Assembly: GCF_006345805.1 (NCBI RefSeq) | Contig: NW_021823863.1 | Location: 1-20,427, forward strand | Source: Octopus sinensis | Taxonomy: Eukaryota | Length of the DNA stretch: 20,427 nt | Reading direction: 5' to 3' | Shown: piece by piece, positions 3,003 through 19,614 of the stretch | Layout: the number at the start of each line of letters is the position of its first letter | Position numbering within the stretch: position 1 is the stretch's first letter | The notes under the pieces: model-generated | Databases searched by the model: none | What the model was told of the DNA's origin: nothing | Seen by the model: the letters and a program-made list of their open reading frames with translations, nothing else | Program-made: the position numbers and the translations under genes

Positions 3003-3540
3003 TATTTCTTTACTGTCCACAAGGACAGACAAATGGATTCAGTCGATTATATCGACCCCAGTGCGTAACTGGTACTTAATTTATCGATCCCGAAAGGATG
3101 AAAGGCAAAGTCGACCTCGGCGGAATTTGAACTCAGAACGTAATGGCAGACGAAGTACCTATTTCATGACTATCTACAAGGGGCTAAACACAGAGAGGAC
3201 AAACAAGGACAGACAAAGGGATTAAGTCGATTACATCGACCCCAGTGCGTAACTTGTAGTTAATATATCGAACCCGAAAGGATAAAAGTCGACCTCGGCA
3301 GAATTTGTACTCAGAACGTAACGGGAAACGAAATACCTATTTCTTTACTACCCACAATGGGCTAAACACAGAGGGAACAAACAAGGACAGACAAACGGAT
3401 TAAGTGCGTAACTGGTACTTAATTTATCGACCCCGAAAGGATGAAAGGCAAAGTCGACCTCGACGGAATTTGAACTCAGAACGTAGCCGCAGACGAAATA
3501 CCGCTAAGCATTTCGTCCGGCATGCTAACGATTCTGCCAC
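3003..3540 (-). mobile_element. head-to-tail trimer of tRNA-derived SINE family C
   Basis: Three units at 3003-3159, 3160-3337 and 3338-3540, homologous to the full copy at 19159-19390. Only the 3338-3540 unit keeps the A-box head (TGGCAGAATCG); B box is GAGTTCAAAT. Confidence 0.92.
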
Positions 3541-7045: not shown

Positions 7046-7201
7046 TCTATTCTAGGCACAAGGCCTTGAAAATTTTTTGATGAAGGGGGCTAGCCGATTA
7101 CATCGACCCCAATTCGTAACTGGTACTTATTTAATTGATTCTGAAAGGATGAAAGTCAAACTCGGCGGAATTTGAATTCAGGACGTAGTGGCAGACGAAA
7201 T
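7044..7201 (-). mobile_element. SINE family C, variant 3' tail, lacking the head
   Basis: CGATTACATCGACCCC...CTGGTACTTA...AAAGGATGAAAG...CTCGGCGGAATTTGAA. The tail differs (GGCCTTGTGCC on minus) and ends in (TAA)n. Confidence 0.88.
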
Positions 7202-7349
7202 CATAGTAATGATTGATAATAATAAAATACCATTCATACCTTGATGGAATACCAGGTCACTGGCTCTCATGGCGTCTGATCTTAACTGATTGGAAGTGTT
7301 ATCATGTACATTGTTTTGTCCTGGTGTAAAAGATGGGCTACAGCAAATA

Positions 7350-7552
7350 TATTTCTTTATTGCCCCCAAGGGGCTAAACATAGAGGGGACAAACAAGGAC
7401 AGACAATGGGATTAAGTAGATTGCATCGACCCCAGTGCGAAACTGGTACTTTTATTTATCGACCCCGAAAGGATGAAAGGCAAAGTCGACCTCGGCGGAA
7501 TTTGAACTCACAACGTAACGACAGACGAAATACCGCTAAGCATTTCGCCTGG
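7350..7552 (-). mobile_element. SINE family C lacking the first ~30 nt
   Basis: Aligns to 19159-19390 and to the 3003-3540 units. Confidence 0.92.
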
Positions 7553-13001: not shown

Positions 13002-13480
13002 TCCTTCATCTTTATGCATCACAGCTTTCTATTCATCATCTCCTAAATATTCTAAACTCATCACAACTTCACCCAATCTTTTTCCTTCATCTTAACGCCT
13101 CATAGTCTTATCTCTCAAGCTCAGCCAAAATATCTTAAACGCATCTTAAGCACATCTTAAACACATCAAAACTTTACTCCGTTTTTTATTTCATCTTAAT
13201 GCTTCACAGGTCTCTCGTTCTAGCTTATCCTAGACACCTTAAACGCATTAAGAACCACTTAAGCACATCTTAAACACGTTCAGAACATCTTAAACACATT
13301 ATGAATACCATAAATTATTACAGTTCTATCTAGCTTATCCTAAACATATCCAGAACGCATCTTAAGCATATATTGAGCAATTATTAAACACATGTTATAC
13401 ACTTCTTAAACATATATTAAAGGCATCTTAAACACATATTGGATCTTTAACACATCTTGGACACATCTTAAACACGTATT
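13002..13480. repeat. degenerate 11-bp minisatellite (CATCTTAAACA)n
   Basis: Recurring CATCTTAAACA/CATCTTAAGCA units. Similar sequence lies at about 11500-11660 and 12150-12290. Confidence 0.8.
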
Positions 13481-16965: not shown

Positions 16966-17326
16966 AGACGTGAACGTTTTGATTGGTAAGAATTCTAGTT
17001 CCCATCCACATGGTTCTGGGTTCAGTCCCACCGTGTGGCATCTTGGGAAAGTGTCTTCCACTATAGGTTCGGGCCGAACAAAGCGTTGTGAGTGGATTTT
17101 GTAGGCAGAAACTGAAAGAAGCCCGTCGTGTATATAATTGCATATGTATGTGTGCCTGAACACCGCATGACAACCGTTGTTGGTGTGTTTACGTCCCCGT
17201 AACTCAGCGGTTGGGCAGAAGAGAGACAGAACAAGTATCAGGCTTAACGAAAAATAAAACTTCAAAGCGCAGCCCCAGCATGGCCATAATGTAATAAGTG
17301 AAGTAATATAAGATAAAGCATAGAAA
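16966..17326 (+). mobile_element. diverged full-length SINE family B
   Basis: Colinear with 4760-5152 (CCACATGGTTCTGGGTTCAGTCCCAC...GAAAGAAGCCCGTCG...CCCAGCATGGCC). Confidence 0.9.
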
Positions 17327-17419
17327 GAGCGAGAGAGAAAATTGGATTTTCGTAAGGTTTTCATGAAGTTTTTCTGTGGGATCTTAGTTCAGTTGGTAGT
17401 AATACCTAAGAAATATTCA

Positions 17420-17572
17420 GGCAAAGGAATAGCTGTGTGGTAAGAAGCTTGCTTCCCAACCACATTGTTCCGGTTTCAGTCCTACTGCGTGACACCTTGG
17501 GCAAGTGTCTTCTATTGCCTCGGGACGACCAATACCTTGTGATTGGATTTGATATATGGAAACTAAAAGAAG
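17420..17572 (+). mobile_element. SINE family B, 5' half, joined to a 28S rRNA fragment
   Basis: Colinear with 4760-4915 up to GGAAACTAAAAGAAG. Confidence 0.92.
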
Positions 17573-17585
17573 ACCAATCGAGCCG

Positions 17586-17628
<43 letters not shown>

Positions 17629-17759
17629 CGCCAGCGGGAGAACGACACGCAATTCCGTCCGGTAAAGCGAACGACTGGAGGCCCCGGGGACGTTGACGGC
17701 CTCGATCTACTCTCGAACTCAGAACGGGCCGCTCCTCTCCCAATCGGAGGCGGCAGAAT
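17570..17759 (+). rRNA. isolated 28S (LSU) rRNA-derived fragment, domain II; pseudogenic, not an rDNA unit
   Basis: Contains the eukaryotic LSU signature TCTAGTAGCTGGTTCCCTCCGAAGTTTCCCTCAGGATAGCTGG, then TCCGGTAAAGCGAA and a CTCAACCTATTCTCAAACT-like motif in the correct order. The flanks are not rDNA. Confidence 0.93.
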
Positions 17760-17761
17760 AT

Positions 17762-17786
17762 CGTGTGTGTGTGTATGTATATATTT

Positions 17787-17817
<31 letters not shown>

Positions 17818-17866
17818 GTATACACACACATACAGAAACACACACACACACACACATATATATATA
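17762..17866. repeat. (TG)n/(TA)n/(CA)n microsatellite
   Basis: Directly visible. Its position corresponds to the internal microsatellite of SINE-B. Confidence 0.9.
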
Positions 17867-18399
17867 GGTGTGGGTGGGTGGTAAGGGGCTTCCATTGTCC
17901 CATACTCATTCTGTTCTGAAACGGCCCAATGCTTTCTAATGAACCCATGGCTCTGCTGAGAGAGATCTTCTGCAGTATTATGTGGGTGTGTCCTATATTT
18001 ATTTGAGAGGGTCGTTCCTGAGCGTCTCCGCCCAGTGATGGAATCTCGGTTCTGCGAAAGCCAAAGGAAAATAGTAACCATATGTTAATTTTAGGCCGGA
18101 AGTATTGAATATATTAATGTGTTTAGAATATATGCATTGGCGCATTATATCCTTAATGGCTACATAAGTCAGTGTATCACGGGGTAAATTCTTTATTTAC
18201 TACATCTAAGTTTTATATATATATATATTATATATATATATATAATATATATATATATACCTACAAGTTCACATACTACTACACTATCGTATGCCCCCAT
18301 ACTTACATCAAAACAACCCTGCCTGCTTGTCACTTTTTTTTAAAACCTAATTTGAATCTGTCAAAATATAAGAGTCTTTTTAACATGAATGTAAATGAT

Positions 18400-18618
18400 A
18401 AGTATTTTGTTGATGCAGTACGGAATTTTGTCAGTGAACAGGTCGTGGTCTCAAAGCGACGAAAATATTTTGGTTAATTAAATTTAAATGTTGCAGTGAA
18501 TCTAACGGTTTTTGTGTGTTTCTTAAATGGCTTATAAACACCTTCCAAGCTGAAATTATTTTCGTTCCAGCACATGATCTCAGATCAGGTCACTTGCTAT
18601 GCAAGTACATCTCCGTAA
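18400..18618. mobile_element. possible unclassified transposon terminal fragment
   Basis: Ends in a hairpin ACTTGC-TAT-GCAAGT followed by ACATCTCCGTA next to AT-rich DNA. No partner end found. Confidence 0.3.
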
Positions 18619-18730
18619 TATATAATACTATGTCTTCAGAAATTTTAAGACATTGATTAGTAGGGATTGAGATATTGAGGGTTTAAAAAACTTGACTATA
18701 TCAAACTGGGTGGGTCTTAGGGTAATTATA

Positions 18731-19158: not shown

Positions 19159-19390
19159 GGCGGCGAGCTGTCAGAATTGATAGCACGTCGTACGAAATGC
19201 TTAGCAGTGTTTCGTCTGCCGTTACTTTCTGAGTTCAAATTCCGCCGAGGTCGCCTTTGCCCTTCATCATTTCGGCGTCGATTAAATAAGTAGAAGTTAC
19301 GCACTGGGATCGATGTAATCGACTTTATCCCTTTGTCCTTGTTTGTCCCCTTTGTTTAGCTTCTCCCTTCTGTTGGCAATAAAGAAATAA
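19159..19390 (+). mobile_element. full-length SINE family C (AAAGAAATA tail)
   Basis: GGCGGCGAGCTG head, B box GAGTTCAAATTCC, central GCC.TTCATC.TTTCGG.GTCGAT.AAATAAGTA domain. Confidence 0.92.
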
Positions 19391-19401
19391 ATATACTTTA
19401 A

Positions 19402-19614
19402 GGTGGCGAGCAGGCAGAGTCGTTAGCACGCCGGGCGAAATGTTGATCGGTATTTCGTCTGTCTTTACGTTCTGAGTTCAAATTCCGCCGAGGTCGGCTT
19501 TATGTTACATCCTTTTGGGGTCGATTAAATAAGTACCAGTTACACACACTGGGGTCGATGTAATCGACTCATCCCCTCGCCCAAACTACTGCCCTCGTGG
19601 CAAAATTTGAAACC
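19402..19614 (+). mobile_element. full-length SINE family C, alternative tail ending in (ATT)n
   Basis: Same head and body as 19159-19390, with a different tail CCCTCGTGGCAAAATTTGAAACC. Confidence 0.92.

What the first reader, a model, noticed from the sequence alone, without database searches (positions are those of the whole stretch)
17420..17775. SINE-28S rRNA chimera: ~190 nt of LSU rRNA embedded in a tRNA-SINE
Seen: SINE-B runs to ..AAAAGAAG and switches at a 3-nt AAG microhomology (28S GAAAGAC) into sense-strand 28S domain II. After ..GCGGCAGAAT it returns to TCGTGTGTG, the SINE's own (CCCG)TCG-microsatellite position, with only about 4 SINE bases lost. No TSD or poly(A) is visible. Established: rRNA-derived SINEs and RT template-switch chimeras are known in other animals. 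Inference: either a double template switch (SINE-rRNA-SINE) or RNA/DNA-templated break repair. Because it lies downstream of a Pol III promoter, it could be the seed or a member of an undescribed tRNA-28S composite SINE family.
Basis: partly seen in the sequence, partly recalled or inferred. Interest (0 to 1): 0.75.

Follow-up and report, generated by a model that had tools for sequence, protein, structure and literature searches.

The report
Lone 28S scrap inside old SINE
A 190-base scrap of the animal's own ribosomal RNA gene sits inside one older copy of a common short jumping element, likely pasted in later during repair of a DNA break; it occurs once in the assembly and is ordinary genomic debris, not a new family of mobile elements.

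Summary
The layout is real: SINE head and core (17420-17572), sense-strand host 28S rRNA (17570-17763), then a microsatellite, with 3-nt overlaps at both joints, 4 SINE bases lost and no TSD or poly(A). It is not a family: each junction motif occurs once in the 2.7-Gb assembly and both flanks are single-copy. The insert is much younger than the SINE (4 of 193 substitutions versus 19-22 of 153; p about 1e-4 to 2e-5), no close parent SINE was found, and the SINE's 3' tail is missing. This argues against one template-switching event and for a later templated patch, like human class 2 TSIPs. It is one of at least 97 dispersed short rRNA pieces sampled here. One other piece (L122) sits independently at the same SINE site and in the same orientation, but 1 of 96 against 0.25 expected (p = 0.22) does not show a hotspot. 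Read support for the junctions could not be tested. The scan's earlier notes describe similar one-off rRNA/SINE nestings elsewhere in this genome.

The parts
17420..17572 (+). 5' part (tRNA-like head and CORE/Ceph-like core) of an abundant SINE; old copy, 12-14% diverged from consensus; one substitution in the B-box-like motif
   Evidence: 5 further copies in the window at 75-82%; consensus alignments; best other genomic match 89%. The conserved heptamer named for CORE/Ceph domains in PMC5786205 section 21 is present. B-box reading is by eye.
17570..17572 (+). 5' microhomology (3 nt) shared by SINE core end and 28S
   Evidence: alignment with 29 rDNA-type copies and SINE consensus
17570..17763 (+). 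Host 28S rRNA piece, sense, about LSU positions 1303-1496 of the host unit used as reference; 9-nt deletion; 3' end fits the older type-B variant
   Evidence: Rfam RF02543 86.8 bits; position; 2 of 185 substitutions versus type-A majority; 4 of 193 versus majority of 21 type-B pieces
17761..17763 (+). 3' microhomology (3 nt) shared by type-B 28S and the SINE's pre-microsatellite motif
   Evidence: depends on assigning the last 9 nt to type B with 2 mismatches
17764..17866 (+). TG/TA/CA microsatellite, likely the SINE's central microsatellite; no SINE 3' tail follows
   Evidence: tail search of 17761-18700 empty at E 10; 17870-18210 single-copy

Best explanation
A 190-nt piece of the host's own 28S rRNA gene lies once in the assembly inside an old SINE copy, and it was likely inserted long after the SINE, as a templated patch during microhomology-mediated repair of a DNA break at the core/microsatellite boundary. 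Shown: identity of both parts, single copy, 3-nt overlaps, 4-nt loss, no TSD or poly(A), large age gap, about 100 similar dispersed rRNA pieces. Inferred: germ-line break, end joining through the 3-nt overlaps, and a template that was reverse-transcribed rRNA or an rDNA fragment (not separable for this copy). It has no predicted function and, lacking the SINE tail, would not be mobilised as a unit.
For: Single copy: 5' junction motif 1 hit with up to 1 mismatch, 3' junction motif 1 hit, right flank 1 hit, left flank only at the window. Age: insert 4 of 193 substitutions versus type-B majority, SINE part 19, 20 or 22 of 153 versus three consensus choices, Fisher p 1.3e-4, 6.7e-5, 1.6e-5. L122 shows the same order: insert 2 of 94, SINE head 17 of 125, p 0.003 (the 17 of 125 counted by eye from the alignment). 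No parent copy above 89% among 40 scored of 4934 candidates. Background: 97 independent short rRNA pieces kept of 180 loci examined, median 135 nt; 1 of 97 has an A-run, 7 of 97 pass the duplication score. Signature matches class 2 TSIPs: no TSD or poly(A), microdeletion, microhomology (PMC5110952, passages). Against a library chimera: two CpG-type changes, a deletion and a type-B end that the long rDNA units examined do not carry.
Against: No reads or second assembly were laid across the junctions, so misassembly is argued against only indirectly; the window is a whole unplaced 20-kb contig. Public runs hold up to 0.87 of the sampled words of 17240-18220, but only 9% of its words need the chimera, so this does not test the junctions. 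The 3' overlap depends on the type-B assignment; the last 6 nt could be filler or a short duplication of SINE bases. No empty allele was seen, so the pre-insertion state is taken from the consensus. The parent-copy search scored only 40 of 4934 candidates. Earlier notes report many LINE-made small-RNA fusions in this genome (unchecked), which raises the prior for RT template jumping.
Confidence: 0.72

Rival explanations
1. Endonuclease-dependent retroposition (tailless retropseudogene): a LINE enzyme nicked the old SINE, primed on the rRNA fragment through the 3' overlap and copied it in; the duplication was lost or never formed.
For: 7 of 97 pieces pass the duplication score versus 1 of 582 swapped-flank controls, 4 clear by eye (L209, L212, L214, L222). 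Two pieces start within 3 nt of the modelled 28S 5' end (L146, L157), pointing to RNA templates. 28S tailless retropseudogenes are known in human (10 cases, PMC5322556 passages).
Against: This insert has a deletion, not a duplication, and at about 2% divergence a TSD should still be visible. PMC5322556 ties tailless forms to L1 machinery.
Confidence: 0.13
2. Double template switch: one reverse transcriptase copied SINE 3' part, jumped to 28S, jumped back to the SINE RNA, and the whole was integrated at once.
For: Sense orientation and near-exact return to the SINE position in both the window and L122. 28S/LINE-1 chimeras are mostly sense (83% of 18; bioRxiv 10.1101/2025.02.02.635956, passages). 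Earlier unchecked notes describe such fusions in this genome.
Against: Six-fold age gap between the parts; no close parent SINE; no 3' tail and no SINE TSD in the window copy.
Confidence: 0.08
3. Member or seed of an amplified tRNA-28S composite SINE family.
For: A Pol III-type head lies upstream and no run of 4 T interrupts 17420-17762, so read-through is possible. L122 is a complete SINE with a 28S piece at the same site.
Against: One copy of each junction; L122 carries a different piece and is the only SINE-core neighbour among 96 other pieces; the window copy lacks the tail that 60 of 77 sampled copies keep.
Confidence: 0.02
4. Assembly or library chimera between an rDNA read and a SINE locus.
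For: Small unplaced contig; junction reads not examined.
Against: Private CpG-type changes, a 9-nt deletion and an older-variant 3' end; exact placement at the SINE boundary; a second natural case (L122).
Confidence: 0.05

Closest known systems
Class 2 templated sequence insertion polymorphisms (Onozawa and Aplan, PMC5110952; passages read)
   Same: Short patch from a distant, transcribed locus; no TSD or poly(A); microdeletion and microhomology at the joints
   Different: Described in human; polymorphism and RNA origin not tested here; the passages seen do not mention rRNA donors
Dispersed LSU fragments and SINE28 (Longo et al. 2015, PMC4994717; abstract and section 9 part 1 of 2 read)
   Same: About 100 dispersed 28S pieces per genome (109 in human); 28S pieces nested in an otherwise intact transposon are shown there
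   Different: SINE28 comes from the 3'-terminal 500 nt of 28S and has an A-rich tail and TSD; this piece is internal, tailless, without TSD and single-copy
Tailless retropseudogenes (Noll et al. 2015, PMC5322556; passages read)
   Same: Truncated structural RNA without poly(A), 3' complementarity to the target; includes 28S-derived cases
   Different: Defined by 8-35 nt TSDs and L1 target sites; none here
[quoted passage not shown]
   Same: Sense-oriented 28S piece of similar size (median 269 nt there) joined to a retroelement
   Different: There the parts integrate together, with rRNA 5' of a LINE 3' end; here the rRNA is internal to a SINE and younger than it

Membership tests
Composite tRNA-28S SINE family | Multiple copies of the same unit with different flanks | tested here: not met
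   1 hit per junction motif; flanks single-copy
Composite tRNA-28S SINE family | 3' tail for LINE recognition and TSD around the unit | tested here: not met
   no tail within 940 nt; longest exact repeat of the 5' flank downstream is 7 nt, 490 nt away
Composite tRNA-28S SINE family | Pol III transcript spanning the junction | not testable with these tools
   no reads could be laid on the element; RNA runs listed hold only small shares, which is not evidence either way
SINE28 | Derived from the 3'-terminal ~500 nt of 28S | tested here: not met
   Rfam alignment ends at model position 1118 of 3401
SINE28 | A-rich tail and TSD | tested here: not met
Tailless retropseudogene | No poly(A); 3' complementarity to the target | tested here: met
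   3-nt overlap, conditional on type-B assignment
Tailless retropseudogene | TSD of 8-35 nt | tested here: not met
   duplication score 0 for L001
Class 2 TSIP-like insertion | No TSD, no poly(A), microdeletion, microhomology | tested here: met
   target state inferred from the SINE consensus
Class 2 TSIP-like insertion | Donor locus intact elsewhere | tested here: met
   rDNA units with 18S, 5.8S and 28S
Class 2 TSIP-like insertion | Presence/absence polymorphism (empty allele) | not testable with these tools
Template-switch chimeric retrocopy | Both parts of equal age (co-integration) | tested here: not met
   2.1% versus 12-14%, Fisher p 1e-4 to 2e-5

The most novel reading that the evidence does not exclude
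The core/microsatellite boundary of this SINE is a recurrent capture site: rRNA pieces are repeatedly patched in there, in sense orientation and through 3-nt overlaps (window and L122), placing 28S sequence under a Pol III head and, in L122, ahead of an intact tail, which would show how SINE bodies acquire new modules after insertion.
Probability: 0.12. Interest if true: 0.5.

Novelty: new member of a known kind. Interest (0 to 1): 0.2.

Why it matters
As found, little: one dead insertion among many. It is a tidy dated example that a SINE-rRNA-SINE layout can arise by nesting rather than by template switching. If the site proved to be a hotspot, it would offer a DNA-level route for module gain in SINE evolution. 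The dispersed pieces also keep a record of an older 28S variant, which could date rDNA turnover.

Tried and rejected
Read or contig support across the junctions was not obtained, so that check stays open. Hotspot at the SINE core end: 1 of 96 pieces excluding the window, 0.25 expected, p 0.22, not supported. Preference for microsatellites: 13 of 96 versus 12.2 expected, p 0.45, rejected. Foreign origin of the rRNA: rejected, it matches host rDNA. The type-B comparison used one sequence because of a faulty pattern (15 of 85, p 0.3-0.6) and was replaced. The SINE-neighbour column was empty through a script fault and was redone. Rfam microRNA hits are microsatellites below gathering score. Seven literature searches listed no paper on a cephalopod tRNA-28S SINE; the library lacks most subscription papers and no supplements were read.

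Full report
Observation. At 17420-17572 lies the head and core of an abundant SINE with five more copies in the window and 109 hits in 600 kb of sampled genome. From 17570 to 17763 the sequence is sense 28S rRNA (Rfam RF02543, 86.8 bits). It is the host's own: it matches units that also carry 18S and 5.8S with 2 of 185 substitutions, both CpG to CpA, and one 9-nt deletion. The joints share 3 nt at each end and 4 consensus SINE bases are lost. There is no TSD or poly(A).

The 3' end. The last 9 nt do not fit the 28S in the long rDNA units (type A) but fit, with 2 mismatches, a second variant (type B) found at 23 dispersed places by one motif and in 32 fetched loci, some of them the same place. 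The 3' overlap depends on this assignment; filler bases or a short duplication of SINE bases remain possible.

Family test. The 5' junction motif, which holds only consensus SINE and rRNA letters, occurs once with up to 1 mismatch; the 3' junction motif once; the right flank once; the left flank only here. None of the 29 other loci has a SINE at the same 5' joint. The SINE's 3' tail, kept by 60 of 77 sampled copies, is absent downstream. So this is not an amplified unit.

Order of events. The SINE part differs from consensus at 19, 20 or 22 of 153 sites, depending on the consensus used (93 cores, nearest 15, or 11 older-type copies); the insert differs from the majority of 21 type-B loci at 4 of 193. 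Fisher p is 1.3e-4 to 1.6e-5. A chimera copied from an already diverged SINE transcript would leave a near-identical parent; the best other match is 89% among 40 scored of 4934 candidates. The insert therefore most likely entered an old resident SINE.

Background. Motif searches at four 28S positions gave 23, 38, 75 and 78 places. I examined 180 loci; 44 were dropped because an end lay outside the locus, 30 for a GC-rich flank, 3 for length over 1200, 1 for no rRNA at the centre and 5 for a shared flank, leaving 97 pieces, median 135 nt. A few of these begin with R2-like 3' sequence rather than pure rRNA. One of 97 has an A-run and 7 pass a duplication score (control 1 of 582). Two pieces start within 3 nt of the modelled 28S 5' end while others reach into ITS2, so both RNA and DNA or precursor templates may contribute. 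Human has a similar load, 109 LSU fragments, with some nested in transposons (PMC4994717, section 9 part 1).

A second chimera. L122 (G000:C10876 near 14600) is a SINE with head, core end, about 100 nt of type-B 28S from just downstream of the window's piece, microsatellite and intact tail. The insert is again sense, at the same boundary, with short overlaps by eye, and younger than its host (2 of 94 versus 17 of 125, p 0.003). It is a separate event. Excluding the window, 1 of 96 pieces follows a SINE core end, against 0.25 expected from 30000 random positions (p 0.22); microsatellite neighbours are not enriched (13 of 96 versus 12.2). A hotspot is not excluded but not shown.

Mechanism. No TSD, no poly(A), a small deletion and microhomology are the features of class 2 TSIPs, read as break repair with a templated patch (PMC5110952, passages). 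I give this 0.72; LINE-primed tailless retroposition 0.13 (PMC5322556, passages); a double template switch 0.08 (bioRxiv 10.1101/2025.02.02.635956, passages); misassembly 0.05; composite family 0.02. The enzyme and the RNA or DNA nature of the template are inferred, not shown.

Limits. No reads were laid across the junctions, so the assembly is supported only indirectly, and expression is untested. Run shares cannot decide it. Other papers seen: PMC5786205 (passages and section 21), PMC4758252 (passages), PMC13282606 (passages; no rRNA mention), PMC9115989 (passages), PMC6007223 (abstract). No supplements were read. Seven searches listed no cephalopod tRNA-28S SINE. A word look-up of earlier findings gave nothing; the look-up by genome gave eight unchecked notes, five of them on rRNA or small-RNA pieces and fusions.

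Verdict. A real, single-copy, later insertion of host 28S into an old SINE: a new member of a known kind, interest 0.2.

Noticed in passing
L122 = G000:C10876:13105-16126, around locus 1300-1830: Second, independent SINE-28S-SINE chimera at the same SINE boundary, with a different type-B 28S piece of about 100 nt and an intact tail; the core also has a short internal rearrangement.
   Followed up: yes
L025, L028, L029, L112-L134 versus L002-L023: Two 28S variants differ just after the window's piece: type A in long rDNA units, type B in dispersed, more diverged pieces; likely a record of an rDNA variant that has since been replaced.
   Followed up: partly
L034-L051 (C1, C2, C3, C18, C19, C20 and unplaced contigs): Multi-kilobase rDNA units (18S-ITS-5.8S-28S) are scattered on many chromosomes, some inverted or rearranged.
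   Followed up: no
L170:3-932, L184, L165, L168, L190, L036: Several different elements end at the same 28S site (recalled as the R2 target); L170 has a 309-aa open frame with a weak zf-RVT hit (E 0.008, below cut-off). Likely several R2-like families in dispersed rDNA copies.
   Followed up: partly
L209, L212, L214, L222: Short 28S pieces (43-99 nt) flanked by 12-40 nt duplications and without poly(A): tailless-retropseudogene-like insertions.
   Followed up: partly
L146, L157: Pieces that start within 3 nt of the modelled mature 28S 5' end with non-rDNA-looking left flanks, suggesting RNA templates; L157 lies 115 nt behind a SINE core.
   Followed up: partly
L013, L015, L016, L018: Duplicated locus on C18 and an unplaced contig where an antisense SINE part abuts a long 28S piece.
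   Followed up: no
window 3019-3540, 7090-7550, 19160-19570: A second SINE-like repeat family, partly in tandem 178-nt units, on both strands.
   Followed up: no
window 13132-13480: Degenerate 11-nt tandem array.
   Followed up: no
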